From Pseudomonadota bacterium (lineage in GTDB: Bacteria; Bdellovibrionota; Bdellovibrionia; Bdellovibrionales; SG-bin7), in NCBI GenBank assembly GCA_034439715.1, contig JAWXAY010000080.1, positions 2,063 through 66,062 of the forward strand: DNA of 64,000 nt, written 5' to 3'. Numbering within the stretch: the first letter of the stretch is position 1; each line of letters starts with the position of its first letter. Below, piece by piece: positions 20,660 to 45,886 of this stretch. Under the pieces are notes generated by a model. That model did not search any database and had not been told where the DNA came from. It worked only from the letters and a program-made list of their open reading frames with translations. Both the position numbers and the translations under genes were made by a program.

Positions 20660-20693
20660 TCAAAAAACTAAACTTCTAACAGGGGAATCTCTA

Positions 20694-21698: not shown

Positions 21699-21710
21699 TC
21701 TGAGGTAAAT

Positions 21711-22883: not shown

Positions 22884-22885
22884 AT

Positions 22886-23926: not shown

Positions 23927-23937
23927 TTGGAGGCAAT

Positions 23938-27355: not shown

Positions 27356-27364
27356 GAGATTTAA

Positions 27365-27952: not shown

Positions 27953-27954
27953 AT

Positions 27955-28665
27955 ATGAATTTCCCTGTACTCATTCTAGCTGGTGGTTTTGGCACAAGAC
28001 TTAAATCTGCAATCGGCGATATTCCAAAACCAATAGCTCCTGTTGGCGATAAAACCTTTTTGTATTTTTTAATAAGTAATCTCTATAGGCAAAGTGTGCG
28101 CGAAATCGTTTTTAGTCTTCACTTTAAAGCTGAGTTAGTAATTGCAGAGGTAAAAAAGATGAGTTTGCCTCAAGATTTAAAATTAAAGTTTGTCACAGAA
28201 TCGGAGCCCATGGGCACAGGTGGTGCGATAAAGTTTTGCTGGGAGAGCTGTTCAAATTCCGAGGGTTTGATAGTTGTAAATGGCGATACCTATTTGTCTT
28301 CAGGGATTCAAGAAATTGAAGGGAATAACTTTCGAGATGCTGTGATAGGCTTAACTTTTATCGAAAATACCTTTCGTTATGGCTGCGTCGACCTCGACGA
28401 TAATGAGTTGGTAGTGGCATTTACTGAGAAATCACATAATAAATCTGGTTGGATTAATAATGGCTTGTACCGGCTTCCGGCACACTTACTTAATACTTTG
28501 CCGCAAGGAAAGTATTCTTTAGAAACTAATATTTTCCCGAAATGGTGCCTAGAGGGAAAAATCAAAGGCTTAAAATTAGATGGGGAGTTTATTGATATAG
28601 GGGTACCTGAGGACTATCAAAATTTTCAGAAAAACCTTAAGCAATTCACCAATGCAAACATTTGA
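27955..28665 (+). CDS. Sugar-1-phosphate nucleotidyltransferase (HddC-like heptose-1-phosphate guanylyltransferase candidate)
   Basis: 236 aa. ILAGGFGTRLKSAIGDIPKPIAPV, directly after gmhA. Confidence 0.6.
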   Translation: MNFPVLILAGGFGTRLKSAIGDIPKPIAPVGDKTFLYFLISNLYRQSVREIVFSLHFKAELVIAEVKKMSLPQDLKLKFVTESEPMGTGGAIKFCWESCSNSEGLIVVNGDTYLSSGIQEIEGNNFRDAVIGLTFIENTFRYGCVDLDDNELVVAFTEKSHNKSGWINNGLYRLPAHLLNTLPQGKYSLETNIFPKWCLEGKIKGLKLDGEFIDIGVPEDYQNFQKNLKQFTNANI

Positions 28666-33494: not shown

Positions 33495-34010
33495 TCACTT
33501 TCGTAAATTAAGAAAAGCCAAAATCGCATTAACGTGACTATTAAAATCAGTGTGATCAATATTATTCTGAATAATGAGGTCAGGGTTTTTTGGTTCTTCT
33601 GCCGCAAGATCAAAACCCACGACGTCTTTCATGGTGCCCTTTTCAAAAGAGCTATAGAGGTTTCGGGCATTGCGATTTTTTAAAACTTCCTTATCAACTT
33701 GAATTAAGACCTCGGTATACCCTATGAAATTTTTGCGATTCCACTCATGTATCTCCGAAAAAAGCGACATTGTAGAAACCACTACCCAAAAATTTTGAGC
33801 GTCAAGCGCTTTCGCAAATCGACATATTCGATAGGCGTTCGTCAGTCTGCTTTGATAATCATGCTTAATCTGAGGATCCCCAACGATCTCTCGCACCAAA
33901 TCGCCATCGACACTTACTACTGTTAAGTTTCGATTTCTCATTTCTCCGACCAAAGCCTTAGCAATCGTGGTTTTTCCTGCGCCAGAGAGTCCTGTTATCC
34001 AAATGACCAT
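33495..34010 (-). CDS. APS-kinase-fold kinase, Cj1415-like (candidate cytidine diphosphoramidate 3'-kinase)
   Basis: 171 aa. P-loop ITGLSGAGKTT and VDGD. No cysD/N/H nearby. Last gene of the operon matching cj1418c-cj1415c. Confidence 0.65.
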   Translation of the reverse strand: MVIWITGLSGAGKTTIAKALVGEMRNRNLTVVSVDGDLVREIVGDPQIKHDYQSRLTNAYRICRFAKALDAQNFWVVVSTMSLFSEIHEWNRKNFIGYTEVLIQVDKEVLKNRNARNLYSSFEKGTMKDVVGFDLAAEEPKNPDLIIQNNIDHTDFNSHVNAILAFLNLRK

Positions 34011-34012: not shown

Positions 34013-34960
34013 CTAAAATGCCTTTTCGAAATGTTTAATAAATTCTGCGAAAAGATTTTTCGGCAGATGATTGATGCCTGCAGCACCAGCCCGACCTCCG
34101 CCTGTTTCATAGCGAGAACAAAGCTCGACGGCGCCACTGGCGGATACTAGCGGGGCTCTTACGGAAACCATAAATCCATCTTGCCCGTTGTCTACGGCCA
34201 CACAGTGCGCGATTGAAGGTTCTTGTTGTGCTAAATAGTGACCCACCTCTCCTATCACGCGTTGAGCCCAGGGCTGATGAGGCAAAACCAATGTATTATT
34301 AAAGGGAATATGGAGCTGCAAGGCTTTTTCGAGGTCCTGCTGCCTTCTTAAAAAGAGCTCCCTACACAAGGTGTCTTGTTTAATGAAATCAAGAGGGTTT
34401 GCGAATTTTGCAATTCTCTTCCACAATTCTGAAGGATTAATGTAGAGGTCTTCAATTTTTAAGCCATAAGAATTGTAATTGAGGGCTTGGCCAAGTTCGG
34501 TTAGCAGAGTGATGTCGTTTTTAGCTAGTTTTGCTTTTACGCAAATATCAATAGCTGTTTGATGAATATTGTCACCGAATAGTCCAACAGCGGCCCACAA
34601 TTGATGTTGCTCATTTAAAAACTGGTTGACGATCCAAGATGTATTTACACTTGATGAAGTATCGATCCAGCATTGGAGGTTCTCATGAATTAGTAAGGTG
34701 TCAGATTTGCTTTTGTGATGGTCAAACCACCGAACATGGCAACCTTGTGATAAAAGTTTCTCTAAGGCCAAATGATTTTTTTCGATTTCAATATCAAGTA
34801 CAGTCACGGATGTAGACTTAACATCAGATATATTTTTAAGCAAAAGGGTGTCTCGCTTTACACCGGTGACAAGAACTGGCGGCTGAGCGAGTTCTTCAGC
34901 TAAACAGAGCTGTTGGAGAGCGCAGATCCCATCGGCATCACCATTAAAAACGAAAATCAT
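34013..34960 (-). CDS. DHH/DHHA1-family phosphoesterase
   Basis: 315 aa. Motif I FNGDADGICA, motif II VLDIEI, motif III WFDHHKS (D80-H81-H82), motif IV GLFGDN, and DHHA1 motif ETGGGRAGAAGI. Confidence 0.75.
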   Translation of the reverse strand: MIFVFNGDADGICALQQLCLAEELAQPPVLVTGVKRDTLLLKNISDVKSTSVTVLDIEIEKNHLALEKLLSQGCHVRWFDHHKSKSDTLLIHENLQCWIDTSSSVNTSWIVNQFLNEQHQLWAAVGLFGDNIHQTAIDICVKAKLAKNDITLLTELGQALNYNSYGLKIEDLYINPSELWKRIAKFANPLDFIKQDTLCRELFLRRQQDLEKALQLHIPFNNTLVLPHQPWAQRVIGEVGHYLAQQEPSIAHCVAVDNGQDGFMVSVRAPLVSASGAVELCSRYETGGGRAGAAGINHLPKNLFAEFIKHFEKAF

Positions 34961-35696
34961 GAGACCATCCTGAAGTACTTAAAAGCTGCTCACACACACT
35001 TAAGTCTTTCTTACTATCAATTTCACACCACTTGCCTTCGACACCAACTGTATTAATTGTCGCACCACTCTGTAAAAGTAAGTTAAGCAGACTTGTCATG
35101 TCTAATTTGTTTCTCTTTATGGGATCAAGTTGAGTGAGTTGCTGAGTTATTTTTTTCCAGCCAGAAGGGTTGATCAGCAGAAGTCCCATATATTGACCCT
35201 GGATATCCGAAAAATTTTGGGTTTTTTTTCCGATTTCAATTAATTTACCGTTTGTGTTCATTATGAAGGACTCGGCATCTGAAAGCGGATTTTCAAAACG
35301 TTTTTCCCAAAGCTGTAACCACAAGCGATCGTAAGAGATCACAATATCCCCAGAACTATTCATGAGTTGTTTAACTATACTGGGATGGTAAACAATATCA
35401 GAGTAACTCACTAAGCAAGTTTCGTTTTCTAACCACTCGCTGGCACACACCAGTGACTGAACCATATTGGTTTGTTCCCAGTCGGAATTGATAAAGGCTC
35501 GATCTGCGTAAGGGGCCAACATGTCTGCGCGATATCCTGTGACAATTCCAATTTGAGAAACAACTGAAGTTCTTAAGGATTGAATTTGCCATTCTAAAAG
35601 AGTTCTTCCTAAAAGCTGTACTAAGCATTTTGGATTATTCTCGGTCAATTGGTTTAGACGTGCCCCTCTGCCAGCGGCAAGGATTATCGCTTTCAC
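34944..35696 (-). CDS. LicC-type nucleotidyltransferase, Cj1416-like (candidate CTP:phosphoramidate cytidylyltransferase)
   Basis: 250 aa. MKAIILAAGRGARL...PKCLV. Position in the operon equals that of cj1416c. Confidence 0.65.
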   Translation of the reverse strand: MKAIILAAGRGARLNQLTENNPKCLVQLLGRTLLEWQIQSLRTSVVSQIGIVTGYRADMLAPYADRAFINSDWEQTNMVQSLVCASEWLENETCLVSYSDIVYHPSIVKQLMNSSGDIVISYDRLWLQLWEKRFENPLSDAESFIMNTNGKLIEIGKKTQNFSDIQGQYMGLLLINPSGWKKITQQLTQLDPIKRNKLDMTSLLNLLLQSGATINTVGVEGKWCEIDSKKDLSVCEQLLSTSGWSHDFRF

Positions 35697-36358
35697 TGTT
35701 CTCCTTTCAACGCAAAGAAGGAGCGAATTAATTTGTGGCTCAAGTCAGGGTTTTTTTCTTTACGCTCAGGATGCCACTGAATTCCACCGACCCTATGCTG
35801 TTTATGAATAAGGCCTTCGACCCACTCGCCATCAGTAGTGAGGGCAATGGGCTCTAGTCCATCAGCCAGCTCGTCTTTTCTGACTCCAAAATTGTGAAAC
35901 GAGTTTACCTCATATTCTTGATCAAGGCCTTTTGGCACAAACTCACTTTGAGTTAATTGAATCAGGTGCTCTTTGCCCACATGGAGGTTGGAATTATGAG
36001 GACGAACTTCTCTACCGTAATAATTTTGAATAACCTGTAAACCACGGCAAATGCCAAAAACAGGAATTTTTTTTTGAATGGCAAAATTTAAAATTGAGTT
36101 TTCAGTTTCGTCTCGCCGAGGTGCGGAACCTAAATCATTTCCTCCAGTTAGTATGACGCTATCGATATCCCATTTTTGCAAATAGCCAACGATATCTGAA
36201 CCCAGATTCGGTAGGAGTAACCAGGAAATCTCGGGTAAGGTTTTTGACATAAACTGGTACCAGTCATGAGAAATAGCATCACGTTCTTCGAAATACTTTT
36301 CGGCATTGGCAATCCTTAGGCTCAGTCCTAATCTTTTAGCCCCCAGTTCATTAACCAT
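35693..36358 (-). CDS. Class I glutamine amidotransferase / peptidase C26 gamma-glutamyl hydrolase, Cj1417-like
   Basis: 221 aa. Nucleophile elbow FGICRGLQVI and GIQWHPE. Confidence 0.7.
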   Translation of the reverse strand: MVNELGAKRLGLSLRIANAEKYFEERDAISHDWYQFMSKTLPEISWLLLPNLGSDIVGYLQKWDIDSVILTGGNDLGSAPRRDETENSILNFAIQKKIPVFGICRGLQVIQNYYGREVRPHNSNLHVGKEHLIQLTQSEFVPKGLDQEYEVNSFHNFGVRKDELADGLEPIALTTDGEWVEGLIHKQHRVGGIQWHPERKEKNPDLSHKLIRSFFALKGEQ

Positions 36359-38750
36359 AGACGGGCCTCACTATTCGATCTCGGCAATTGAGCTCTACAT
36401 AAGGGACCTCTAAGAGCTGATCAAAAGTTAATTCTCCGCAGCCAATAGCTGCTGGCAAGCCATACTCAGTGCAGCGGATTGCCATATGGGAATTCGCTCC
36501 CCCAAACTTAGTAATCAAACCTGCAATCTTTCGTGTAAAAATCCAATCAAATCCCGGATCGGCATTCTCAATACAGACAATTTTATCTTGCAGATCGGTT
36601 TTCATTTCGGATTGGGCATTTAAAAAAAGGACGGGACGTTCGATGCGGCTATTAGTAATAAAGTTAGGTGCGCTTCTGTGCACGGGGACTACATCGAGGT
36701 CTTTATATCCTCGAATCAGGTAGCCTAAACGAAGGTGACTTAGTTGGTTTTCAAATTCAAGCGATTGTTCGACGAGTGTTTTAACATGGTTTTGCTTTTC
36801 CCCGTTAGAGATGGGCAAGGCCTGAATGTTTAAAATATCTTCGAGAGGTAAATGAGAGAGCAGATCTCTACTTAAATTGAGAGACTCTCCCCATTTGGCA
36901 ATACATTCTATGGCGTCCGAAAGATTTTTGCTGAAAATGAATTTAGAATATTCTCGGCCGATTATGGATGCTTTTGCATATTCGAGGAAAGTTTTAGTGG
37001 AAATATTTAGCTCCAAGGTGTCCAGCTCGGATTGTAGTAAAACGCACTCGTTAGGGCTAAGTTCTACCTCATGAAGTTCAGCTGAGGTAGAAAGTCCCAG
37101 TGAGGAGCTACCAGAGAAGAAATCTTTTCTTTGGTCATATCTTAAGGAGAGGATGTCATAGGTGCCTGGTCGAAGGTGTCCATACTTTTGTAAGAAAGCT
37201 TGCTCAGTTAATTCAATATTTGAAAGTTTTTTTAGGTCTTTCGAAAGGGAGGTTGTTATAGTGTTCCAAGATCTTTTTATTTCATTCAATTTTTCTAACG
37301 ATAATATTTTCTTAGAGACCGCAGACTGAAGTAGCGATTCGGCAATAAAGGCATGCCGTGCAACGATAGCGAAGGGACGAGATCCCAATTCTATGCATTC
37401 ACTCAGAAGGTTTTCGGCGACTTCGAGTTCCTTTAGATTGTTCCACCTAGAGGCGAGAGGCATAAGCTGTTTGGATTTAAGTGTTTCAATGTTTTGCAGG
37501 GCTTCGAAGAGGCTTCCGGTATCACTGGGGCAGACGCAGGCTTGTGTCAATGTCTTAAGCCGCTGTTTAAAGTGTTGGAGTTCTGACTCTGTCAATAGCC
37601 CGGGATAGCGCCTCTGAAATTCTATATCAAAATCAAAAGTTAGAATCGAAAATGCGATTTGAAATTCAACTTTGTCATGCAGTTCAGGATGCTTTCCAAG
37701 ACGGTAAAGCCCAGCGTTAACTAACTTTTCTGCAACTCCATCGTTGAGGCCAGCTGGCAGAAGAGAATTAAAGCTGTTTCTAACATCAATATAGGGATGA
37801 CTTCCTAAAATAACCATCAGCTTTTCACTTTGTATGGGCCGATAGCCCATCTTTGCTCTTGCTTCGCGCCAGACTCGGTCAGTAATTATTTTTTTATATA
37901 GAGAGATCGCAAGCGGTCGGGGGCAGGTCCCAATAATCTCCGCCGGATTCCAGTCTGGCATCTGTCCTAAAATAGTTGAGTCGCCCAAAACCGTTACCTT
38001 TTTTTGTGAGATTTGAGCGAAGGATTTTTTGGCCTCTAAAAGAGAAGCGTGAACGGTTTTATTTAAGGTCGCCCAGGTTTTTTCAGTTGATAAAATTCGT
38101 ACTTGGACCAAATAAATTTGACCGTTTTTTGTTTGAGCAAACTCGAGATCGAGTGGCACGTGGCCACAAATGCTTTCAATCTCTCGAGTAAATTCAATCC
38201 ATTTTTTGACTCGTTCAGAGTCTATCATCGCCAAGTCAGTGTCTCTAAAAATTAACACCATTTTACTAACGCCGACTCCTCCTGTTACTGAGTCGGTTTT
38301 TCCGGACTCGTCATCATAATTAATGACGTAGTAGGGGGCCCCGTTGGTCATGAGGTGGGTAGTAATAACTCCACTAACGGCAACTTGGTTTAGCATGGGC
38401 TGAATCAGGACCTGATCTTTAGTATTTCGCGATGTGTAGGAGCCAATCACCTGTGCAATTGCCGAGTGAATTTGATCTGCGTTTTGAGTTTGAATATCCA
38501 GACAGGACAAAAAAGCCCCAGCCATTGACTGTGATTTTGTATCTTCGCAAGCGGCACTACTACGAACGATCAATGACGGGTATCTCGAGAATTTTTCTTG
38601 TATCTCTTGAACCAATCCCTCAGAGGAACTCAACCAGTTTTCGACACTAAAGTAATATAGATCGAGTATAGTAGAGCGTTTAACTTGGGGCTTTAACTGC
38701 TCCAGAGTCTCTGACTTTGTGCCAAAAATAAATTTGGTATGTAATTCCAT
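36351..38750 (-). CDS. PEP-utilising-family enzyme with a C-terminal swivel phosphohistidine domain, Cj1418-like (candidate L-glutamine kinase)
   Basis: 799 aa. GGANSHMAIRCTEYGLPAAIGCG with His755 (codon 36486..36488) lies 44 aa from the C-terminus. No PEP/pyruvate TIM barrel follows, unlike PpsA/PPDK. The N-terminal ATP-grasp-like region contains LIVRSSAACED. Confidence 0.65.
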   Translation of the reverse strand: MELHTKFIFGTKSETLEQLKPQVKRSTILDLYYFSVENWLSSSEGLVQEIQEKFSRYPSLIVRSSAACEDTKSQSMAGAFLSCLDIQTQNADQIHSAIAQVIGSYTSRNTKDQVLIQPMLNQVAVSGVITTHLMTNGAPYYVINYDDESGKTDSVTGGVGVSKMVLIFRDTDLAMIDSERVKKWIEFTREIESICGHVPLDLEFAQTKNGQIYLVQVRILSTEKTWATLNKTVHASLLEAKKSFAQISQKKVTVLGDSTILGQMPDWNPAEIIGTCPRPLAISLYKKIITDRVWREARAKMGYRPIQSEKLMVILGSHPYIDVRNSFNSLLPAGLNDGVAEKLVNAGLYRLGKHPELHDKVEFQIAFSILTFDFDIEFQRRYPGLLTESELQHFKQRLKTLTQACVCPSDTGSLFEALQNIETLKSKQLMPLASRWNNLKELEVAENLLSECIELGSRPFAIVARHAFIAESLLQSAVSKKILSLEKLNEIKRSWNTITTSLSKDLKKLSNIELTEQAFLQKYGHLRPGTYDILSLRYDQRKDFFSGSSSLGLSTSAELHEVELSPNECVLLQSELDTLELNISTKTFLEYAKASIIGREYSKFIFSKNLSDAIECIAKWGESLNLSRDLLSHLPLEDILNIQALPISNGEKQNHVKTLVEQSLEFENQLSHLRLGYLIRGYKDLDVVPVHRSAPNFITNSRIERPVLFLNAQSEMKTDLQDKIVCIENADPGFDWIFTRKIAGLITKFGGANSHMAIRCTEYGLPAAIGCGELTFDQLLEVPYVELNCRDRIVRPVYG

Positions 38751-38766: not shown

Positions 38767-40110
38767 GTGACATTGCGCCTAAAACTCAACCTTTCTCATC
38801 TATATTTCTATCTTAGAAGCCCAGTTAGGACGCTTTACTGGCGTGCCATAAAGTTAAAGGATCAAATTTATTGGCCCAGCGTAGAGTTAAAGAATCGAAT
38901 TTATTGGTCGCTCTACGATAGTAAACACTTGAGTGTGCTCATCGATGCCGTTAGGCGGCCTAAGATTTACCTACAAGTTGTAATAAGTTCGCTCAGGGTC
39001 ATTTTTAGAGGAAAAAAACTCGTCCTTATTTATTTACTATATCGAGGACATCAGAGCTGGGTTGACGGAGTCGTCCAAAAATTGGCTAAAGATCCCAAAT
39101 TTGGAGTAATTATTTTTACTCACGATGCTGCTTTGCCCAAAAGTCAGGGTAAGAATATTAAAGTCTTTTTTTTGGATTCCTCAAAACCTTTTCGGGGACT
39201 AAATCTCCTGCCAGCCGTATTTGCCGATTTGTATCTAACGCCAACCTCCGTCACAGGAAACAACGCGGCATTTATCTACCCCAAAGTTCATTTTTTTCAC
39301 TCTCTGGTGAGCGTTCACTTTGTTTATGAGAATGACACCTTCAGTGACTATCAGTTTATCTATTGTGCGGGCCAGCATCACATCGAAGAAATGAAAGAGT
39401 GGTTTGCAGACCGAAATCTGAAGAATAAATGTCTGATCCCCGGGGGGTACCCTAAGCTAGATTCGCTTTTGGCTAAAAGATCCCAGCTGGTGAAAACTCG
39501 GACAGACGGCATTAAGAATACTGTAATTTTTGCACCGACTCTTTTGAGTAAGAAGAGCGAAAAATTTTCGGCTCTTTTGGTCGACGGAAAGCAAATCATT
39601 AAATTACTTTTGGAAAGTGGATATCAAGTTACGTTTAGACCGCATCCCTTAAATTTGGAGAAAACAGATCCCTATGCTTCGCTGGTAGAGGGATTAATCG
39701 AAGAATTCCAATCGCATGCTCGATTTACTTTGGACCGGTCTGTAGATTATTTTGAATCCTATGAAAATTCCGACTTGATGATTACTGATATTTCGGGAAC
39801 GGGTTTTACTTACGGTTTAGGCTTTGAAAGGCCTGTAGTGTTTGTTTCTCCCAACGAAGGTGAGCACTCACCTCAAAAAGGAGTTGAGTTTCTTTGCCGG
39901 AAAGATATCGGAAAAGTTGTTGAGGATGTTCAGTGTTTACCTAAGGTCTGCCGCGAGATTCTTGATAATTTTGAGAGTTATCAAAAAAACCTGCTGGAGT
40001 TTCGTAGCAAATTTATTTTTAATGTTGGCGAAAGTGATGATTATTTTATGAAGAATATATCGTACATAATCACCGGAAAGAAACATCCTGACTGGACATA
40101 TATTGACTAG
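38767..40110 (+). CDS. CDP-glycerol glycerophosphotransferase (TagB/TagF) family protein
   Basis: 447 aa, GTG start (uncertain). GGYPKLDSLL, VIFAPTLL, FRPHPL and SDLMITDISGTGFTYGLGFERPVVF match Glyphos_transf motifs. The N-terminus carries an 11-aa repeat. Confidence 0.7.
   Translation: MTLRLKLNLSHLYFYLRSPVRTLYWRAIKLKDQIYWPSVELKNRIYWSLYDSKHLSVLIDAVRRPKIYLQVVISSLRVIFRGKKLVLIYLLYRGHQSWVDGVVQKLAKDPKFGVIIFTHDAALPKSQGKNIKVFFLDSSKPFRGLNLLPAVFADLYLTPTSVTGNNAAFIYPKVHFFHSLVSVHFVYENDTFSDYQFIYCAGQHHIEEMKEWFADRNLKNKCLIPGGYPKLDSLLAKRSQLVKTRTDGIKNTVIFAPTLLSKKSEKFSALLVDGKQIIKLLLESGYQVTFRPHPLNLEKTDPYASLVEGLIEEFQSHARFTLDRSVDYFESYENSDLMITDISGTGFTYGLGFERPVVFVSPNEGEHSPQKGVEFLCRKDIGKVVEDVQCLPKVCREILDNFESYQKNLLEFRSKFIFNVGESDDYFMKNISYIITGKKHPDWTYID
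38852..38907 (+). repeat. Imperfect direct repeat, 2 x 23 bp with 33-bp period (AGTTAAAGGATCAAATTTATTGG / AGTTAAAGAATCGAATTTATTGG)
   Basis: Read directly from the sequence: 21/23 identical, copies at 38852..38874 and 38885..38907. It lies in the 5' end of the TagF-like ORF, ~100 bp from the divergent Cj1418-like start. Confidence 0.6.
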
Positions 40111-40112
40111 TC

Positions 40113-40883
40113 TTATTTTAGCTGAACCGTCCAAGAACGAGTTCGATAGGGCACTTTTACAAAATCGAAATCTTTAATTTCGTTTTCGATCATGTTCAAT
40201 ATTTGTTGAAATTTCTCGGGACCAGCCTGTGCTTGGATATCGTTTACTGACCTCCATGCTCCTAGATAGCGAGGTTTTTCCATCTGAACCTCATGTTGGG
40301 ATTCAATGAATAAAACATCTTTGAAGTCGCCAGTCGAAGTTAAATTGCTCTCGATGTCCTTTGTGTAGGATTTTGCGCCAGAAGAAACACGCTTTAGCTC
40401 TGGCAACATCTCATGAATTTTATCTTCAATTTTTAAATGCAGGGTACTTTTGTCTAAGTCTCTTGGGTTCCAGAGAGCAGTGAAAAATCCCTTTGGTTTT
40501 AAAATTCGTTTGAATTCTTTTAAAGCCAGAGCCGCATTTGTCCAGTGAAATGAAGAAGCCATCAAAACCCAATCTACAGAATGGTCTAATAGTCCGGTTT
40601 TTTCTCCGGTACCCTTTGACCAAATAAATTGAGAGTTTCCAGAAAACAAATATTGTCCCTCGGCTCTCATGGCATCATTGGGTTCAACCGCAAAACCTGT
40701 CAGCCCAATCTCAGACAGGTTTTCTGTTAGTTTACCGGTTCCTGCACCGACATCCGCCACAACGACACTTGTTTTATTAACGGACTGTTTTACGTATGCT
40801 TGTAAAGCCTTCAGCGTCGACAGAGAATAGCCAGTACGATGAATATACTCTTTTGCCAGCTGACTAAAATCGCCTAATTCCAT
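40113..40883 (-). CDS. Class I SAM-dependent methyltransferase (Methyltransf_11 type)
   Basis: 256 aa. SAM motif VVADVGAGTGKLTENL. Last gene of the wzm-wzt-MT operon. Confidence 0.75.
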   Translation of the reverse strand: MELGDFSQLAKEYIHRTGYSLSTLKALQAYVKQSVNKTSVVVADVGAGTGKLTENLSEIGLTGFAVEPNDAMRAEGQYLFSGNSQFIWSKGTGEKTGLLDHSVDWVLMASSFHWTNAALALKEFKRILKPKGFFTALWNPRDLDKSTLHLKIEDKIHEMLPELKRVSSGAKSYTKDIESNLTSTGDFKDVLFIESQHEVQMEKPRYLGAWRSVNDIQAQAGPEKFQQILNMIENEIKDFDFVKVPYRTRSWTVQLK

Positions 40884-40899
40884 TTGCCCTCAATACTGA

Positions 40900-41682
40900 T
40901 CATGGATGTCCCAGGTGAGAAATGAGAGGCCCCGTATTATCGAAAGATGTTAAATACTTGTTTGTTCCCAACAAGGGTGGACCATCATATACCTTTTGAT
41001 GGTTATCTATTACGATACAGCGAGAACAATAGCTATTAACGTCATCAGCGCTATGAGTGACTAAAATAATAGTAGTGCCGAGTGCATGGAGAGTCTTTAT
41101 TTTTTCAATACATTTTCTTTGAAAACCGACATCACCTACGGCCAATACTTCGTCAAAAAGCAAAATTTCAGCTTCCATGTGTACGGCAATAGAAAACCCG
41201 AGTCTTACCAACATGCCGCTTGAATATTTTTTGACTGGGAGATAAATCATTTCACCCAATTCAGAAAACTCGATTATATCATTTAAATACTGGAGTGTTT
41301 TTTTTCGACCAAAACCTAAGATGGCGGCGTTAAGAAAAATATTATTATAACCGCTCAATTCAAATTGAAATCCAGCACCCAACTCAAGCAAAGGAGCAAG
41401 AGCGCTTGAGACCTTAATATTGCCTGAGTCCGGATGGTAAATTCCGGAAATAAGTTTTAAGATTGTACTTTTTCCGGCGCCATTCCTACCCATGATTCCA
41501 ACAAATTCACCTTTTGCGATATTAAAGCTTACATCTTTTAAAACAGTAAATTCATGGGTCGTACCAAAATCAAATTTGAATTTTAGTGCATTGACAAGAA
41601 TGGACTTTAAATCGGTCGGCCTGTCTTCGGAATAGCGGAATTTTTTTGACACGTTTTCTACTGAGATTACGGATTCATTCAT
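40900..41682 (-). CDS. wzt: Polysaccharide/teichoic-acid-type ABC exporter ATP-binding protein (Wzt/TagH/KpsT family), no C-terminal carbohydrate-binding extension
   Basis: 260 aa. Walker A GRNGAGKST, signature YSSGMLVRLGF, Walker B ILLFDE. Confidence 0.8.
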   Translation of the reverse strand: MNESVISVENVSKKFRYSEDRPTDLKSILVNALKFKFDFGTTHEFTVLKDVSFNIAKGEFVGIMGRNGAGKSTILKLISGIYHPDSGNIKVSSALAPLLELGAGFQFELSGYNNIFLNAAILGFGRKKTLQYLNDIIEFSELGEMIYLPVKKYSSGMLVRLGFSIAVHMEAEILLFDEVLAVGDVGFQRKCIEKIKTLHALGTTIILVTHSADDVNSYCSRCIVIDNHQKVYDGPPLLGTNKYLTSFDNTGPLISHLGHP

Positions 41683-42482
41683 ATGATTTCAGCCAACTTT
41701 CTACCCTGCCGATCAAAAAAATAAAGCCCCATAAAAAAAATGGCAAGAGTCCAAAGGCTGGCAGTAACGAAATATTCAGTTGGCGCGATCCTATTATCCA
41801 TTACCAAATCGCGAAAAATAATAAACGGCGTAGCTATAGGATTAGCAAAAACTATCCAACTTAATTTGGTGGGTATCAAGTTTTGGCTGTAGACAATGGG
41901 TGTTGCGTAAAACCAAACTTGAAGTATCAATCCGAGCAAGTGCTTTAGATCTTGAAAATGTATGAATGCCACAGAAAGAAATAAAGAAATGCCATATCCT
42001 ATTAGAAAGAAACAAATTAAAGGAAATATAATTAAAATCAGACTCCAATCAAAAGTTCCGCCGGTTAAAAGATTCGAAAGCAAGATAACAGGTAGAGCTA
42101 TGAGAAAAGTAATGAAATTTGTAACGGTCACGACCAGAGGAAAAACATTTAAGGGTAGGGGAACCTTACTAATCAGACCTGAGTTAGCCCGAATTGATTC
42201 TAAACCGTCCATAATCGTTTGCGAGAAAAATGTCCAAGGCAGCACGCCGGCAATAATGAAGGCCGAGTAACGAGGAACAGAGATTTTCACGATAACCTGA
42301 AAGACAAGATAGTACATTGCCGCCGTTGCCATCGGTATTAGGAGGGACCAGGCAATTCCCAAGAAAGATTGACGATATTTCAGTTTAAGATTTCGCGAGA
42401 TTAAATTATAAACCAGAAACTTATGCTTTGCACAAAAGGCATCGGTTTTGATCCAGGGGATTAGCATTTGCGCTTGAGTCAT
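41679..42482 (-). CDS. wzm: ABC-2-type polysaccharide exporter permease (Wzm/TagG/KpsM family)
   Basis: 267 aa, 6 TM helices, N-terminal LKLKYRQSFLGIAWSLL motif. 4-nt overlap with wzt. Confidence 0.8.
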   Translation of the reverse strand: MTQAQMLIPWIKTDAFCAKHKFLVYNLISRNLKLKYRQSFLGIAWSLLIPMATAAMYYLVFQVIVKISVPRYSAFIIAGVLPWTFFSQTIMDGLESIRANSGLISKVPLPLNVFPLVVTVTNFITFLIALPVILLSNLLTGGTFDWSLILIIFPLICFFLIGYGISLFLSVAFIHFQDLKHLLGLILQVWFYATPIVYSQNLIPTKLSWIVFANPIATPFIIFRDLVMDNRIAPTEYFVTASLWTLAIFFMGLYFFDRQGRKLAEII

Positions 42483-42544: not shown

Positions 42545-43861
42545 ATGGCCACATTTTCAATCATTTTAGCGACTTTCAATTCTGAAAAATTTATCCATGA
42601 ATGCATTCAAAGCATATTGAGTCAGGTTTTTACCGATTTTGAACTTTTGATTGTGGATGACGGTTCTACCGATGGCACTCCGAGGTACCTGGAAGAATTG
42701 GCCAAGAGCGATCAAAGAATTCAAGTATATCGCAATGTTAAGAACAGGGGAATGGGCTACAATTATCGCTTTCTTTTAGAAAAATGTAGCGGGGAATTGA
42801 TCGCCCAAATCGGACACGACGATTGTTGGCATCAAAACTATCTTTTGGAAGCCGCAAAATGCTTAAAAAATAGGCCAAACTTCGTAGCGTCAGTAGCAAA
42901 AACACGGCTTATAAACGATCAGGGAACGGTTATTGAAAATAAACTTTTTTTGCACGATCAGATTGAGAGTAATAATCAGCAAAAACTGGTTTTACAGCTC
43001 TATCAGGGCAATTTTATTTGCGCCAGCGCTGTTGTGTTTCAGAAAAAATTTCTCGTAGATAGCTTACCACTAGTTGATTTGGATCAATTTCAGGATTGGA
43101 TGACATGGCTTGTGTTGGCTTTAAAAGGGCCGTTCTATTTTGGCAGTGAGCAGCTGGTTTCGTATCGGGTGCACCAGAACAATCTAAGCCTCTCGGGCAG
43201 GAGTAGGGCTTTGTCGCGACTGGAGTGTAACTGGCTTCGGCCTTTGTTTTTGAAATCAAAAGAATTGTCTCAGTTTGTACTAGCTCAACCCGATCCCGAT
43301 GCTTTTTTATTTAGTCTTTTTGCACAAGTCGACAAAAGTATAAATGTCGACAGAGTCGAAGAGGTGACGGCGGTTTTTCAGTCCATTAAGGAGCAAGAGG
43401 TCTCACTTGGCGAATTACCATCTTACAGGGCCACTATGGGCATGTTTTATTGGTACTTTGGAGCCTTGAAAAAATCATCGCTTTATTTCACTGATGGCCA
43501 AACTTCAAACTCTTGGGTCAATTTGCTATCATCATTAAATTGGAAAACCCTGTTAGTGTTCAAAAAAGAAGCAACAGCAGAAATACCACGCTTTTTTATT
43601 AAATTTAAAAATATTGGACCCTGTTTTTGGGTGCAAATTCGCTTGAGAAATGCACCCCTACCGATTATACCCTTCACTTTGGTTCGGAACACAAGACACT
43701 CGTATTTGGAATCTTTAGAACGGTTTATTGCAGGGCAGCAATATTTTAATTTTGCTCGAATCGTAAAATTTTTTAAAGGGAAATTTAAGAAATGTTTGAT
43801 ACCGAACGGGTTGAGAAGCTACCCAAAGAAGACAACCGACTTGGAACTTGGGAGCTGCTAA
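42545..43861 (+). CDS. Family 2 glycosyltransferase with an uncharacterised C-terminal extension
   Basis: 438 aa. FSIILATFNSEKFI...LLIVDDGSTDGT...GHDD. Confidence 0.75.
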   Translation: MATFSIILATFNSEKFIHECIQSILSQVFTDFELLIVDDGSTDGTPRYLEELAKSDQRIQVYRNVKNRGMGYNYRFLLEKCSGELIAQIGHDDCWHQNYLLEAAKCLKNRPNFVASVAKTRLINDQGTVIENKLFLHDQIESNNQQKLVLQLYQGNFICASAVVFQKKFLVDSLPLVDLDQFQDWMTWLVLALKGPFYFGSEQLVSYRVHQNNLSLSGRSRALSRLECNWLRPLFLKSKELSQFVLAQPDPDAFLFSLFAQVDKSINVDRVEEVTAVFQSIKEQEVSLGELPSYRATMGMFYWYFGALKKSSLYFTDGQTSNSWVNLLSSLNWKTLLVFKKEATAEIPRFFIKFKNIGPCFWVQIRLRNAPLPIIPFTLVRNTRHSYLESLERFIAGQQYFNFARIVKFFKGKFKKCLIPNGLRSYPKKTTDLELGSC

Positions 43862-44244
43862 AGTTTGTTAGCAAAGGCGATGACCGGGGCGAGCTTGTTG
43901 CCATTCAGAATAGTTCTGAGATCCCGTTTGATATCAAGAGAGTCTATTATTTAGTTAACACTAAGGCAGGCGTAATTCGTGGATTGCACGCGCATAGCAA
44001 CTTAGACCAGGTCCTAATTGCTATTTCGGGTTCTTGTCGGGTCAGCGTCGATAATTCACAAAAAAAAGAAGAATTTTTGTTGGATGACTGCCGAGTTGGT
44101 TTGAGAATTCGAAATTACGTGTGGCGAGAAATGTTTGAATTTTCCCAAAACTGTGTGCTTTTAGTATTAGCAAATAGATTTTATGATCCCAACGATTATA
44201 TTCGAGATTATGGAATCTTTTTAAACAAAGCTCGAGGACTTTAG
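43792..44244 (+). CDS. fdtA: WxcM-like cupin: dTDP-4-keto-6-deoxyglucose 3,4-ketoisomerase (FdtA/QdtA type)
   Basis: 150 aa. DDRGELVAIQ...IPFDIKRVYYL...RGLHAH. The track start overlaps the GT2 gene by 70 nt, so the true start is uncertain. Confidence 0.65.
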   Translation: MFDTERVEKLPKEDNRLGTWELLKFVSKGDDRGELVAIQNSSEIPFDIKRVYYLVNTKAGVIRGLHAHSNLDQVLIAISGSCRVSVDNSQKKEEFLLDDCRVGLRIRNYVWREMFEFSQNCVLLVLANRFYDPNDYIRDYGIFLNKARGL

Positions 44245-44252
44245 TTTGATGT

Positions 44253-45353
44253 ATGGAAATTAACTTCCCGTTTGTGGACTTAGCTCTAGTGCACGGTGAT
44301 TTGCGGCCGCAAATCCTCAAGACGTTGAGTGACGTCTATGAGCGACGCGTTTACATTTGTGGATCTGAACTTGAGCAATTTGAAATCGAGTGGGCAAAGT
44401 ATTGCGGAGTCAAATATGCCATTGGGGTTTCTAATGGTTTAGACGCGCTCGCATTAATATTAAAAGCACTTGAGATTGGACCTGGCGATGAAGTAATTCT
44501 GCCCGCCAATACTTTTATCGCCACGGCCCTCGCAGTTTCACAGGTAGGCGCCACGCCAGTACTTGTGGATGTGGACGAGGCGAGCTTTAACTTGTCCTTA
44601 TCCGAAGTAGAAAAAAGTATTACTAAAAAAACTAAGGCTATCATTCCCGTGCATCTCTATGGCCGATTAGCAGATATGAAAGGTCTTGTTGAAATTTCGA
44701 ACCTAAATAAAATTTGGTTAATCGAAGACGCGGCTCAAGCGCATGGTGCCGAAGTCGACAAAATTAGGGCGGGAGCCTTTGGCATTGCAGGGGCGTTTTC
44801 GTTTTATCCCGGTAAAAATTTGGGGGCTTTAGGTGACGGAGGTGGTGTCGTTACCAACGATGAAGCTCTAGCAAAAAAGATTAGAAAACTGAGAAATTAT
44901 GGCTCTGAGACTAAATATTACCATGACCTAAAAGGGAGTAATGCGCGACTTGATGAGATCCAAGCCGCAGTGCTGAGAGTAAAATTAAATTATTTAGAAA
45001 GCTGGAATAGCTTACGCCGTGAGATGGCTAGTGTTTATCAACAGGCGCTGGCAGATACGCCGTTGGTATTGCCACTAGCTAGTAAAGCCAATGAAAACGT
45101 TTGGCACCTCTATGTTGTTAAAACAAAAAATCGCAAAGAAGTTCAAGAAACTCTCTTAGAGAGTGGCATTCAATCGTCTATCCATTACCCAGTGCCTATT
45201 CATCTTCAGAGGGCATTTTCAGACTTAAATAAAGGACTAGGCAGTTTTCCGGTGTCGGAGAGGTTGGCAAATGAAATTCTCAGTTTGCCATTTTGGATAG
45301 GTCTGAATGTAAGTAATTGTGCAAAGGCTATTAAAAAATCTTTGAAATATTAG
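44253..45353 (+). CDS. fdtB: DegT-family aminotransferase (dTDP-3-keto-6-deoxyhexose 3-aminotransferase, FdtB/QdtB type)
   Basis: 366 aa. PLP Lys retained in FSFYPGKNLGALGDGGGV. It sits between the ketoisomerase and the acetyltransferase. Confidence 0.7.
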   Translation: MEINFPFVDLALVHGDLRPQILKTLSDVYERRVYICGSELEQFEIEWAKYCGVKYAIGVSNGLDALALILKALEIGPGDEVILPANTFIATALAVSQVGATPVLVDVDEASFNLSLSEVEKSITKKTKAIIPVHLYGRLADMKGLVEISNLNKIWLIEDAAQAHGAEVDKIRAGAFGIAGAFSFYPGKNLGALGDGGGVVTNDEALAKKIRKLRNYGSETKYYHDLKGSNARLDEIQAAVLRVKLNYLESWNSLRREMASVYQQALADTPLVLPLASKANENVWHLYVVKTKNRKEVQETLLESGIQSSIHYPVPIHLQRAFSDLNKGLGSFPVSERLANEILSLPFWIGLNVSNCAKAIKKSLKY

Positions 45354-45364
45354 GGAGTGTTCGC

Positions 45365-45886
45365 TTGGCAGATATTGAAAATACGAGTTCGGTTCCCACA
45401 TTTTTCTCGCATCCTCAAGCCTTGATTGAAGAGGGCGCACGCATTGGTGCTGGAACCAGAGTGTGGGCCTTTTCTCACATACTTTCGAAAGTTACGATCG
45501 GTAGAGATTGTAATATCTGTGATCACACCTTTGTTGAAAGCGGCGTAGTGATAGGTGATAGAGTGACAGTCAAGTGTGGCGTATACATTTGGCAGGGAGT
45601 TACTCTAGAAAACGATGTTTTCATTGGCCCAAACGCCACCTTTACTAACGATGAGTTTCCTAGAAGTAAAAAATATCCCACTGAGTTTTCAAAAACCCTG
45701 GTTAAAAATGGCGCGAGTATCGGCGCCAATGCTACATTACTGCCGGGAATAACTATCGGCGAGTTTGCCATGATCGGAGCGGGGTCTGTGGTAACAAAGG
45801 ATGTTCCTGCCTACGCAGTGGTTTGTGGTAATCCGGCTAAATTGATTCGCTACTCTCAATGCCCTTCGAATTCGCAGAATGCATGA
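45365..45886 (+). CDS. fdtC: Left-handed beta-helix N-acetyltransferase (FdtC/QdtC type)
   Basis: 173 aa, TTG start. Hexapeptide repeats (IGAGTRVW, IGRDCNI, IGDRVTV, IGPNATF, IGANATL, IGAGSVV). Confidence 0.7.
   Translation: MADIENTSSVPTFFSHPQALIEEGARIGAGTRVWAFSHILSKVTIGRDCNICDHTFVESGVVIGDRVTVKCGVYIWQGVTLENDVFIGPNATFTNDEFPRSKKYPTEFSKTLVKNGASIGANATLLPGITIGEFAMIGAGSVVTKDVPAYAVVCGNPAKLIRYSQCPSNSQNA

What the first reader, a model, noticed from the sequence alone, without database searches (positions are those of the whole stretch)
38767..42482. TagF-family transferase, methyltransferase and Wzm/Wzt exporter flank the phosphoramidate operon: candidate transfer, O-methylation and possible chain-end cap
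A TagB/TagF-family gene lies divergent from the Cj1418-like gene (GGYPKLD, FAPT, RPHP, ITDISG motifs). This family transfers a phospho-group from CDP-activated donors and releases CMP. That chemistry suits a cytidine diphosphoramidate-type donor. It is not, as far as I can tell, the family of the known Campylobacter MeOPN transferases, so it may be a non-orthologous transferase. Convergent with it is the operon wzm-wzt-SAM methyltransferase. In ABC-transporter-dependent O-antigen systems (E. coli O8/O9a WbdD), methyl or methyl-phosphate caps at the non-reducing end terminate chains. An O-methyl phosphoramidate cap would be an undescribed variant. One caveat weakens the cap idea: this Wzt is only 260 aa and lacks the C-terminal cap-binding module.
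Basis: inference. Interest (0 to 1): 0.6.

Follow-up and report, generated by a model that had tools for sequence, protein, structure and literature searches.

The report
Likely phosphoramidate transferase of TagF type
A divergent TagF-like enzyme and a methyltransferase beside a Campylobacter-type phosphoramidate operon are most likely the missing transfer and methylation steps, and the same pairing recurs in many unrelated bacteria, pointing to phosphorus-nitrogen sugar decorations far beyond Campylobacter.

Summary
In detail: 38767-40110(+) encodes a 447-aa TagF-like GT-B protein carrying all four quoted motifs. Convergent with it is the operon wzm (41679-42482), wzt (40900-41682) and SAM methyltransferase (40113-40883).

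The transferase idea is well supported by gene context. All 7 informative contexts of close homologues (21-41% identity) place the gene in or beside an operon with the Cj1418- and Cj1417-like genes, mostly also Cj1416- and Cj1415-like genes. Divergent TagF-like genes lie within 0-3.3 kb of the glutamine-kinase gene in 19 of 80 genomes from many phyla.

The methyltransferase belongs to a family that sits inside such operons in 16 loci. It is therefore the pathway methyltransferase, not a WbdD-like terminator.

The cap idea is not supported here. Wzt is 260 aa with no Wzt_C domain. However, Wzt_C-bearing Wzt proteins occur in two related loci.

I could not test the claim that this family differs from Campylobacter Cj1421/Cj1422, because no Campylobacter sequence was reachable.

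In passing: a DHH-type phosphoesterase gene (window) and a CysQ-type gene (relative) sit in these operons, suggesting recycling of 3',5'-CDP.

The parts
38767..40110 (+). TagF-like GT-B phosphotransferase (447 aa). Proposed phosphoramidate transferase. Residues 9-80 are modelled as helices rich in W, Y, K and R.
   Evidence: PF04464 E 1e-15. AF2 pLDDT 87 with top Foldseek hits to TagF. A broad family profile hits TagF at E 2e-16. Conserved operon context.
39298..39306 (+). HSL motif. H178 is nearly invariant and S179 and L180 are invariant in the close family.
   Evidence: Alignment A3. H178 does not fall in the TagF H444 column in the profile alignment.
39442..39462 (+). GGYPKLD motif (residues 226-232).
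   Evidence: It aligns with TagF 'IGYPRND'.
39529..39540 (+). FAPT motif (residues 255-258).
   Evidence: It aligns with TagF 'YAPTW'.
39637..39648 (+). RPHP motif. H293 aligns with the essential TagF H584.
39781..39798 (+). ITDISG motif (residues 339-344).
   Evidence: It aligns with TagF 'ITDYSS'.
40113..40883 (-). SAM-dependent methyltransferase (256 aa) of the 'MT-A' family. Proposed O-methylation of the phosphoramidate.
   Evidence: Methyltransf_11 E 6e-14. It is 33-51% identical over its full length to methyltransferases inside phosphoramidate operons, mostly between the cytidylyltransferase and kinase genes, in 16 loci.
40900..41682 (-). Wzt/TagH-type ABC ATPase (260 aa) with no C-terminal carbohydrate-binding module.
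   Evidence: ABC_tran only. The best NCBIfam hits are teichoic-acid and galactan exporter ATPases, all below their cutoffs. Wzt_C is seen only in relatives L073 and L074.
41679..42482 (-). Wzm ABC-2 permease (267 aa).
   Evidence: ABC2_membrane. The best NCBIfam hit is the galactan Wzm/RfbD model, below its cutoff.
36351..38750 (-). Cj1418-like L-glutamine kinase (799 aa), first gene of the phosphoramidate operon, divergent from the TagF-like gene.
   Evidence: NF004508 883 bits. PPDK_N and PEP-utilizers domains.
35693..36358 (-). Cj1417-like gamma-glutamyl-CDP-amidate hydrolase (221 aa).
   Evidence: GATase domain. The best NCBIfam hit is NF045546 at 115 bits, below its cutoff of 250.
34944..35696 (-). 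Cj1416-like cytidylyltransferase (250 aa).
   Evidence: NTP_transf_3. Conserved order GlnK-Hyd-CTase in about 60 loci.
34013..34960 (-). DHH/DHHA1-like phosphoesterase (315 aa) inside the operon. Proposed 3'-phosphatase for the by-product 3',5'-CDP.
   Evidence: Weak hits to DHH (E 1e-3) and DHHA1 (E 2e-3) in the right order. An unrelated CysQ-type Inositol_P gene sits inside the operon in L087 and within about 6 kb of the glutamine-kinase gene in L023 and L026.
33495..34010 (-). Cj1415-like cytidine diphosphoramidate kinase (171 aa).
   Evidence: APS_kinase. NF004041 167 bits against a cutoff of 127.
42545..43861 (+). GT2 glycosyltransferase (438 aa), divergent from wzm.
   Evidence: Glycos_transf_2 E 4e-27.
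43792..45886 (+). FdtA-like isomerase (43792-44244), DegT aminotransferase (44253-45353) and hexapeptide acyltransferase (45365-45886). Together these make a 3-acylamino-3,6-dideoxyhexose, a candidate acceptor sugar.
   Evidence: FdtA- and DegT-type genes lie directly upstream of the TagF-like gene in L002 and L003 and near it in other loci, often with a hexapeptide acyltransferase gene.

Best explanation
The region encodes the last steps of an O-methyl-phosphoramidate (MeOPN)-type decoration of a glycan that is exported by an ABC transporter.

Step 1 (inferred from family matches and from the published Campylobacter pathway). The divergent operon makes cytidine diphosphoramidate and its 3'-phosphorylated form from glutamine, ATP and CTP, using the Cj1418-, Cj1416-, Cj1417- and Cj1415-like enzymes.

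Step 2 (inferred from fold, motifs and conserved context). The TagF-like protein works like TagF. An acceptor sugar hydroxyl attacks the terminal phosphorus of the CDP-linked donor, and CMP or 3'-phospho-CMP leaves. Here the group on that phosphorus is NH2 instead of glycerol, so the product is a sugar phosphoramidate.

Step 3 (inferred). The MT-A methyltransferase O-methylates the phosphoramidate. This could happen on the CDP donor before transfer, as FtaC does for CDP-threonine in C. difficile, or on the glycan afterwards.

Step 4 (inferred). The DHH protein removes the 3'-phosphate from the nucleotide by-product.

Step 5 (inferred). All of this happens at the cytoplasmic face of the membrane on the lipid-linked glycan, which probably contains a 3-acetamido-3,6-dideoxyhexose. 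Wzm/Wzt then export the finished glycan.

The decoration is more likely a side-group on repeat units than a chain-end cap.
For: Family and fold: PF04464 match, confident AF2 model, TagF as best structural match. A profile of the phosphoramidate-linked TagF-like proteins hits TagF (E 2e-16), Cps3D and TarL by sequence, and H293 aligns with the essential TagF H584.

Context of close relatives: the family is rare, with 23 hits among 5.8 billion proteins. All 7 informative contexts (L001, L002, L003, L084, L086, L087 and the window) place it in or beside an operon with the glutamine-kinase and hydrolase genes, mostly also the kinase, cytidylyltransferase and methyltransferase genes.

Context of distant relatives: among 80 genomes anchored on the glutamine kinase alone, 19 carry a TagF-like ORF within 0-3.3 kb. 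The figure is 14 of 43 for loci with full flanks. Across all 83 loci analysed, 21 of 25 such ORFs are co-oriented with the glutamine-kinase gene and 10 of 22 loci have one directly next to the Cj1415-like kinase gene. The organisms include Pseudomonas, Aeromonas, Alteromonas, Desulfovibrio, Planctomycetota, Cyanobacteria and Anaerolineales.

Methyltransferase: the window has exactly one MT-A gene, 33-51% identical to methyltransferases inside these operons.

No rival donor pathway: among the roughly 40 window ORFs scanned with Pfam (about 10.0-55.1 kb), none has a TagD-type (CTP_transf_like) domain or looks like a TarI/TarJ CDP-ribitol pair.

Precedent: the TagF-like FtaD transfers phospho-N-methylthreonine from a CDP donor to GlcNAc in vitro (bioRxiv 10.64898/2026.02.12.704994).

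By-product handling: two unrelated phosphatase families known for pAp hydrolysis (DHH-type in the window, CysQ-type in L087) are embedded in these operons.
Against: There is no biochemical evidence, and guilt by association cannot fix the donor.

About two thirds of glutamine-kinase loci with full flanks have no TagF-like gene nearby. Seven have a sulfatase-family protein instead, so TagF-like proteins are not the universal partner.

TagF's catalytic base H444 aligns with Ser161, not with a histidine. The catalytic machinery therefore differs from TagF, or the alignment is off by one strand.

In this window the TagF-like and methyltransferase genes lie outside the phosphoramidate operon, one divergent and one in the exporter operon.

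The hydrolase scores below its NCBIfam cutoff, and the DHH assignment rests on weak Pfam hits.
Confidence: 0.65

Rival explanations
1. The TagF-like protein is an ordinary CDP-alditol phosphotransferase that uses, for example, CDP-glycerol or CDP-ribitol. It adds a teichoic-acid-like phosphodiester to the same glycan, and the phosphoramidate is transferred by some other, unidentified enzyme.
For: This is the default activity of PF04464 and matches the NCBI name of the identical protein. C. jejuni capsule loci carry a true TagF-like glycerophosphotransferase beside the MeOPN genes (HS1.09). Many glutamine-kinase loci lack any TagF-like gene.
Against: Among the roughly 40 window ORFs scanned, none looks like TagD, TarI or TarJ. 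The TagF-like gene is embedded in the phosphoramidate operon, often directly next to the Cj1415-like kinase gene, in phylogenetically distant genomes. The subfamily is so divergent that neither the single sequence nor its close-family profile finds TagF in the PDB. The TagF H444 column is not conserved.
Confidence: 0.13
2. The methyl phosphoramidate is added only to the non-reducing end of the chain and terminates polymerisation, as the methyl-phosphate cap does in E. coli O9a.
For: The methyltransferase is co-transcribed with wzm and wzt. Methyl phosphoramidate is the amide analogue of the O9a methyl-phosphate cap (established knowledge). In L073 and L074 the Wzt proteins closest to this one carry a Wzt_C cap-binding domain and lie next to the glutamine-kinase gene. 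L084 has an operon wzm, wzt (457 aa), two methyltransferases, TagF-like.
Against: The window's Wzt is 260 aa with no Wzt_C domain. There is no WbdD-like kinase/methyltransferase/coiled-coil terminator. The methyltransferase belongs to the family found inside phosphoramidate operons whether or not an exporter is present. The same TagF-like and phosphoramidate module occurs in many loci with flippase-like (Wzx-type) genes. In Campylobacter, MeOPN decorates internal residues.
Confidence: 0.1
3. The TagF-like protein uses an earlier CDP intermediate, such as CDP-L-glutamine. It would transfer phosphoglutamine, as FtaD transfers phosphothreonine, so the final group would not be a simple phosphoramidate.
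For: FtaD shows that TagF-like enzymes accept CDP-amino-acid donors. CDP-L-glutamine is an obligatory intermediate of the pathway (published Campylobacter pathway, cited).
Against: The hydrolase that destroys CDP-glutamine and the 3'-kinase that acts on the diphosphoramidate are both retained in the window and in most TagF-containing loci. The TagF-like gene is most often adjacent to the kinase gene.
Confidence: 0.07

Closest known systems
Campylobacter jejuni MeOPN pathway (Cj1415-Cj1418 synthesis, Cj1419/Cj1420 methyltransferases, Cj1421/Cj1422 transferases) on a capsule exported by the KpsMT ABC transporter
   Same: The window has four synthesis genes with matching families, a SAM methyltransferase, a candidate transferase next to the cluster, an ABC-2-type exporter and heptose-pathway genes.
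   Different: The organism is a Pseudomonadota MAG, not Campylobacter. There is one methyltransferase instead of two, and it sits in the exporter operon. There is one 447-aa candidate transferase instead of phase-variable proteins of 592-642 aa. An extra DHH phosphoesterase gene lies inside the operon. The exporter is Wzm/Wzt rather than KpsMT. I could not determine whether the transferase is homologous to Cj1421/Cj1422.
TagF / TarL / Cps3D / Cps1B (TagF-like CDP-glycerol or CDP-ribitol phosphotransferases, GT-B fold)
   Same: The fold, the Pfam family and the motifs GYPxxD, APT, RxHP and TDxSx are shared. The histidine equivalent to TagF H584 is present. The expected chemistry is also shared: hydroxyl attack on the beta-phosphorus of a CDP donor with release of CMP.
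   Different: The proposed action is a single modification, not polymerisation. The proposed donor carries NH2 (or a methyl ester) rather than an alditol. TagF H444 aligns with a serine. The family is too divergent for direct sequence detection of TagF.
Clostridioides difficile FtaD (CD0244) with FtaC, in flagellin Type A glycan modification
   Same: A TagF-like enzyme decorates a sugar with a non-alditol phospho-group from a CDP donor. It is paired with a SAM methyltransferase and a dedicated cytidylyltransferase.
   Different: The FtaD donor is CDP-N-methylthreonine and the acceptor is GlcNAc on flagellin. Its methyltransferase is an N-methyltransferase. Here the donor would be a diphosphoramidate and the acceptor a polysaccharide.
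E. coli O8/O9a WbdD with Wzt carbohydrate-binding module (chain-terminating methyl or methyl-phosphate cap)
   Same: Both use a Wzm/Wzt exporter, and both involve a methylated phospho-group that is chemically similar.
   Different: The window has no Wzt_C module and no WbdD-like multidomain terminator. The methyltransferase is a 256-aa single-domain protein of the phosphoramidate-operon family.

Membership tests
TagF-like CDP-alcohol phosphotransferases (PF04464, GT-B) | Match to PF04464 above the gathering score | tested here: met
   58 bits against a cutoff of 22.1, E 1e-15, residues 213-417.
TagF-like CDP-alcohol phosphotransferases (PF04464, GT-B) | Two-Rossmann GT-B fold closest to TagF | tested here: met
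   AF2 pLDDT 87, pTM 0.83. Foldseek top 7 hits are TagF chains at E 2e-13 to 9e-12, followed by Cps3D and Cps1B.
TagF-like CDP-alcohol phosphotransferases (PF04464, GT-B) | Histidine equivalent to TagF H584 (pyrophosphate-binding; one of the two essential histidines) | tested here: met
   RPHP H293 aligns with TagF RMH(584)Y in the profile alignment and is nearly invariant in the close family.
TagF-like CDP-alcohol phosphotransferases (PF04464, GT-B) | Histidine equivalent to TagF H444 (catalytic base) | tested here: inconclusive
   In the profile alignment (my reading of the partly legible HMMER posterior line: about 0.7-0.8) H444 falls on Ser161 (LTPTS). A nearly invariant H178 (HSL) lies 17 residues downstream. 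No structural superposition was available.
TagF-like CDP-alcohol phosphotransferases (PF04464, GT-B) | Use of CDP-glycerol or CDP-ribitol, with a cognate TagD or TarI/TarJ gene | tested here: not met
   No such gene is among the roughly 40 window ORFs scanned. The rest of the genome was not visible, and donor use itself cannot be tested here.
Campylobacter-type MeOPN system | L-glutamine kinase (Cj1418 type) | tested here: met
   NF004508 883 bits against a cutoff of 501, full length.
Campylobacter-type MeOPN system | Cj1415-, Cj1416- and Cj1417-type enzymes in one cluster | tested here: met
   NF004041 167 bits against 127. NTP_transf_3. GATase whose best hit is NF045546 at 115 bits, below its cutoff of 250. 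The gene order is conserved in about 60 loci.
Campylobacter-type MeOPN system | Transferase homologous to Cj1421/Cj1422 | not testable with these tools
   No Campylobacter sequence was obtained. The genome scan returned the best 80 of at least 585 loci, none from Campylobacter. Profile searches gave no named Campylobacter hit. afdb50 was unavailable.
Campylobacter-type MeOPN system | Methyltransferase homologous to Cj1419/Cj1420 | not testable with these tools
   No direct comparison was possible. Indirectly, the window's methyltransferase belongs to the family embedded in 16 phosphoramidate operons.
Campylobacter-type MeOPN system | A P-N group actually present on the glycan | not testable with these tools
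   This needs 31P NMR or mass spectrometry.
O8/O9a-type capped, ABC-transporter-dependent O-antigen | Wzt with a C-terminal cap-binding module (Wzt_C, PF14524) | tested here: not met
   The window's Wzt is 260 aa with ABC_tran only. Wzt_C is present in relatives L073 and L074.
O8/O9a-type capped, ABC-transporter-dependent O-antigen | WbdD-like terminator (kinase and/or methyltransferase with a coiled-coil ruler) | tested here: not met
   The only methyltransferase is a 256-aa single-domain protein. No kinase/methyltransferase fusion is among the ORFs scanned between about 10.0 and 55.1 kb.
O8/O9a-type capped, ABC-transporter-dependent O-antigen | Wzm/Wzt ABC-2 exporter | tested here: met

The most novel reading that the evidence does not exclude
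A divergent clade of TagF-like enzymes is the previously unrecognised transferase for phosphoramidate (P-N) groups. These enzymes would use (3'-phospho-)cytidine diphosphoramidate in place of CDP-glycerol. MeOPN-like glycan decorations, described so far only in Campylobacter, would then be made by hundreds of species across bacterial phyla and some archaea. Variants would include a methyltransferase form, a form with formyltransferase-like and 195-aa unknown proteins, and alternative sulfatase-family transferases. A dedicated phosphatase of DHH or CysQ type would recycle the by-product 3',5'-CDP.
Probability: 0.5. Interest if true: 0.7.

Novelty: new variant of a known kind. Interest (0 to 1): 0.55.

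Why it matters
The transfer step of MeOPN biosynthesis has not been reconstituted. In 2025 the Raushel laboratory still listed it as future work (PMC12409886). The papers I could read describe the modification and its glutamine kinase as Campylobacter-specific.

This work supplies a compact, soluble-looking 447-aa candidate transferase with a confident model, a defined partner methyltransferase and a candidate acceptor sugar pathway. Together these make the step directly testable.

The comparative result also changes the picture of how rare P-N glycans are. At least 585 species carry the kinase, and about a quarter to a third of the sampled loci pair it with a TagF-like gene. It also widens the known donor range of the TagF family. 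MeOPN is a phage receptor and a serum-resistance factor in Campylobacter, so relatives elsewhere may matter for phage-host and immune interactions.

Tried and rejected
1. Getting Cj1421/Cj1422 for a direct comparison failed by every route.
- PDB sequence searches with the window's Cj1416-, Cj1417- and Cj1418-like proteins returned no Campylobacter chains.
- The single genome-contig scan, anchored on a glutamine-kinase alignment, returned the best 80 of at least 585 loci, none from Campylobacter.
- The third protein search, with a profile of the 600-700-aa TagF-like class, gave 30 hits; the two that carry names are Desulfovibrio MAG proteins and the rest are unnamed.
- The exhaustive representative search gave 340 clusters. 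The AT-rich hits I looked up were unnamed metagenome clusters of 1-3 members.
- afdb50 was not available.
- Several key Raushel papers are not in the library.

2. I suspected that the roughly 600-aa proteins without Pfam hits near the operon were Cj1421-like transferases. One group is TIGR04331 'LIC12162 family transferase'. I judge these more likely to be nonulosonate transferases, so I set them aside. Other groups were ABC transporters, AsnB-like proteins or unrelated.

3. Promoter and terminator scans of 33.0-46.5 kb were no better than shuffled sequence and gave no operon boundaries.

4. A simple hydrophobic-moment scan of the N-terminal helices did not show strong amphipathicity. Membrane association is therefore only an analogy with TagF.

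5. Direct sequence detection of TagF with the single protein or the close-family profile failed. Only the broad profile A7 succeeded.

6. The PDB sequence search for the DHH protein gave only a marginal RecJ DHHA1 hit at E 0.39.

Full report
**1. What is in the sequence**

The finding's coordinates hold four genes:
- a 447-aa ORF at 38767-40110 (+);
- on the opposite strand, converging on it, wzm (41679-42482);
- wzt (40900-41682);
- a SAM-dependent methyltransferase (40113-40883).

The quoted motifs are all present in the first ORF: GGYPKLD at residues 226-232, FAPT at 255-258, RPHP at 291-294 and ITDISG at 339-344.

Pfam assigns the C-terminal half to PF04464 (Glyphos_transf) at E 1e-15, above the gathering score. 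NCBIfam has no model for it. The identical protein is on record from a Pseudomonadota MAG under the generic name 'CDP-glycerol glycerophosphotransferase family protein'.

An AlphaFold2 model built on 22 homologues is confident (pLDDT 87, pTM 0.83). Its best matches among solved structures are the teichoic-acid polymerase TagF (E 2e-13), then the TagF-like capsule polymerases Cps3D and Cps1B, and only then generic GT-B enzymes.

- Cj1418-like glutamine kinase (883 bits on NF004508);
- an amidotransferase whose best hit is gamma-glutamyl-CDP-amidate hydrolase (below that model's cutoff);
- an NTP transferase;
- an APS-kinase-like protein (above its cutoff);
- one extra gene, a DHH/DHHA1-like phosphoesterase.

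**2. Is the TagF-like protein tied to the phosphoramidate pathway?**

The family is rare. A search of 5.8 billion proteins gave 23 hits.

I looked up the genomic context of seven of them, at 21-41% identity. One contig was too short to say anything. In the other six the gene lies in or beside an operon with the glutamine-kinase and hydrolase genes. Most also carry the Cj1415-like kinase gene, one or two methyltransferase genes and the cytidylyltransferase gene. The typical order is TagF-like, kinase, methyltransferase, glutamine kinase, hydrolase, cytidylyltransferase.

I then ran an independent test that does not start from the TagF-like protein. I anchored a scan of one genome per species on the glutamine kinase alone.
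- At least 585 species carry it, and the best 80 loci were fetched.
- I added the three contexts already fetched (L001-L003), giving 83 loci. I called their ORFs, clustered them, and searched them with an iterated profile.
- 19 of the 80 genome loci contain a TagF-like ORF within 0-3.3 kb of the kinase gene. For loci with full 10-kb flanks the figure is 14 of 43.
- Across the 83 loci, 21 of 25 such ORFs are co-oriented with the kinase gene. In 10 of 22 loci the ORF is directly next to the Cj1415-like kinase gene.

The carriers include Pseudomonas, Aeromonas, Alteromonas, Castellaniella, Desulfovibrio, Planctomycetota, Phycisphaerae, Cyanobacteria, Anaerolineales and Syntrophomonadaceae.

These partner proteins are extremely diverse. 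Mean column identity is 13%. There is a short class of 340-440 aa and a long class of 600-880 aa, including three tandem paralogues in one Desulfovibrio locus.

They are nevertheless homologous to each other and to TagF. A profile of the long class finds short-class members at E 1e-9 to 1e-11 in an exhaustive search. A profile of all classes hits TagF (2e-16), Cps3D (1.4e-14) and TarL (2.2e-12) by sequence.

A TagF-type gene is expected in only a small fraction of random 20-kb windows (my estimate, not computed). Repeated in-operon placement across phyla is therefore strong evidence of a functional link.

**3. The methyltransferase**

The window has exactly one member of a methyltransferase family I call MT-A. 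It is 33-51% identical over its full length to methyltransferases that sit inside phosphoramidate operons, mostly between the cytidylyltransferase and kinase genes, in 16 loci. Two loci have two paralogues, as C. jejuni has Cj1419 and Cj1420.

So although this gene is co-transcribed with wzm and wzt here, it is the pathway's methyltransferase. It is not a WbdD-like terminator.

**4. Mechanism proposed**

TagF-family enzymes let an acceptor hydroxyl attack the beta-phosphorus of a CDP-linked donor, and CMP leaves (established for TagF, TarL and Cps3D). The Campylobacter pathway ends in cytidine diphosphoramidate and its 3'-phosphate (published work cited). The same attack on that donor gives a sugar phosphoramidate plus CMP or 3',5'-CDP.

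A TagF-like enzyme that uses a non-alditol CDP donor to decorate a sugar now has an in-vitro precedent. C. difficile FtaD transfers phospho-N-methylthreonine, and its partner methyltransferase FtaC acts on the CDP donor before transfer.

Two details differ from TagF in the profile alignment:
- H293 (RPHP) aligns with the essential H584.
- The catalytic base H444 aligns with Ser161, while a nearly invariant H178 lies 17 residues later.

Either the base has moved or that stretch is misaligned. I could not superpose coordinates to decide.

The likely acceptor glycan contains a 3-acylamino-3,6-dideoxyhexose. FdtA-like, DegT and hexapeptide acyltransferase genes follow at 43792-45886. FdtA- and DegT-type genes lie directly upstream of the TagF-like gene in L002 and L003 and near it in other loci. 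RmlA and RmlB are at 12206-14109.

**5. The cap idea**

The window's Wzt is 260 aa with only the ABC domain. There is no WbdD-like multidomain protein, and the methyltransferase is accounted for as above.

The TagF-like and phosphoramidate module also occurs in many loci with flippase-like genes of about 520 aa. I read these as Wzx-type by analogy and did not scan them. In Campylobacter, MeOPN sits on internal residues. So a side-group is more likely than a chain-end cap in this window.

The idea is not dead for the wider family. The two Wzt proteins most similar to this one among the fetched loci (L073 and L074, 40-43% identity) do carry a Wzt_C domain just above Pfam's cutoff, and they lie beside the glutamine-kinase gene. 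L084 has an operon of wzm, wzt (457 aa), two methyltransferases and a TagF-like gene.

**6. What could not be settled**

No Cj1421/Cj1422 sequence was reachable. The papers I could read give no fold for them. They are called 'sugar transferases' or 'MeOPN transferases' of 592-642 aa and are listed separately from the 1095-aa TagF-like HS1.09.

TagF-like proteins are the commonest partner of this pathway elsewhere. A long class of about 600 aa without Pfam hits exists, including three tandem paralogues in a Desulfovibrio locus. I therefore think it more likely than not that Cj1421/Cj1422 are remote members of the same superfamily. This is inference, not a result.

If that is right, the finding is a new, compact member of a known functional class. 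If it is wrong, it is a case of non-orthologous displacement.

**7. Other partners**

About two thirds of full-flank loci have no TagF-like gene nearby. Seven loci carry a sulfatase-family (alkaline-phosphatase superfamily) protein of 576-614 aa inside the operon, never together with a TagF-like gene. That pattern suggests alternative transferases.

Many loci replace the methyltransferase with a formyltransferase-like protein plus a conserved 195-aa protein of unknown function. That hints at chemically different end products.

**8. Verdict**

The best explanation is a TagF-type phosphoramidate transferase plus the pathway's O-methyltransferase, feeding a glycan exported by Wzm/Wzt. I give this a confidence of about 0.65.

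In the literature I could search, no paper links TagF-like enzymes to phosphoramidate transfer or describes these clusters outside Campylobacter, apart from a Borg preprint.

Noticed in passing
window 34013-34960 (-); L087 12563-13159; L023 about 3388-3576; L026 about 18582-18929: A DHH/DHHA1-like phosphoesterase gene sits inside the window's phosphoramidate operon. In L087 an unrelated CysQ-type (Inositol_P) gene sits inside the operon, between the hydrolase and cytidylyltransferase genes. CysQ-like genes also lie about 6 kb from the glutamine-kinase gene in L023 and L026. Both protein families include pAp 3'-phosphatases. This suggests recycling of 3',5'-CDP left after transfer from the 3'-phosphorylated donor.
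   Followed up: partly
L004-L083 (genome-contig scan): The Cj1418-type glutamine kinase is called Campylobacter-specific in reviews. It is nevertheless found in at least 585 species representatives across many bacterial phyla and in archaea (Methanosarcinales, Woesearchaeota). More than 4159 protein clusters match at E<=1e-20.
   Followed up: partly
e.g. L008 8200-10000, L021, L018, L076, L030, L047: In 28 loci a 240-aa Formyl_trans_N-like protein lies between the kinase and glutamine-kinase genes. In 18 loci a conserved 195-aa protein with no Pfam match does so. These often stand in place of the SAM methyltransferase, so a different end product than MeOPN is possible.
   Followed up: no
L026 16430-18202, L048 5201-6958, L053 13691-15475, L066 14664-16394, L072 6349-8172, L079 13652-15496, L083 6229-8013: Sulfatase-family (alkaline-phosphatase superfamily) proteins of 576-614 aa are embedded in phosphoramidate operons in 7 loci, never together with a TagF-like gene. 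They are a possible alternative transferase.
   Followed up: partly
L036 3685-9594 (Desulfovibrio MAG): Three tandem paralogues (490, 605 and 613 aa; the longest is 51-54% identical to the other two) of a long TagF-like class lie divergent from the glutamine-kinase gene. They have no Pfam hit and lack the RxHP histidine. The arrangement recalls the multiple MeOPN transferases of about 600 aa in C. jejuni.
   Followed up: partly
L073 6174-7466, L074 7735-9006, L084 3911-9152: Wzt proteins with a Wzt_C cap-binding domain (L073, L074), or with an unassigned 200-aa C-terminal extension (L084), lie next to phosphoramidate genes. L084 has the operon wzm, wzt, two methyltransferases, TagF-like.
   Followed up: partly
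window 38767-39000 and alignment A3 columns 1-100: The N-terminus of the TagF-like family carries one to three copies of a basic and aromatic motif, roughly 'KNAIYWK'. These are modelled as long helices. They may form a membrane-interface anchor, but a simple hydrophobic-moment scan was not striking.
   Followed up: partly
window 12206-29851: A second glycan gene set lies upstream. It has RmlB/RmlA, a Wzx-type flippase (14110-15651), GT2 genes, TPP-dependent E1 alpha- and beta-like subunits flanking a DegT aminotransferase (20694-23926), a B12-binding radical SAM enzyme (23938-25473), two epimerase/reductases, an FAD oxidoreductase and a 726-aa protein with a spermine-synthase-like domain (18339-20519). 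This suggests an unusual, possibly C-branched or C-methylated, sugar.
   Followed up: no
window 27365-28665 and 50150-51208: Heptose-activation-type genes are present: a SIS isomerase, a nucleotidyltransferase and a GHMP kinase. The same kinds of genes accompany MeOPN in C. jejuni capsule loci.
   Followed up: no
L028 6916-8718, L060 4536-6356, L064 8070-9989: Proteins of 600-640 aa just upstream of the glutamine-kinase gene belong to TIGR04331 'LIC12162 family transferase'. They show a faint TagF-like C-terminal resemblance (TDYxST motif). I judge them probably nonulosonate transferases.
   Followed up: partly
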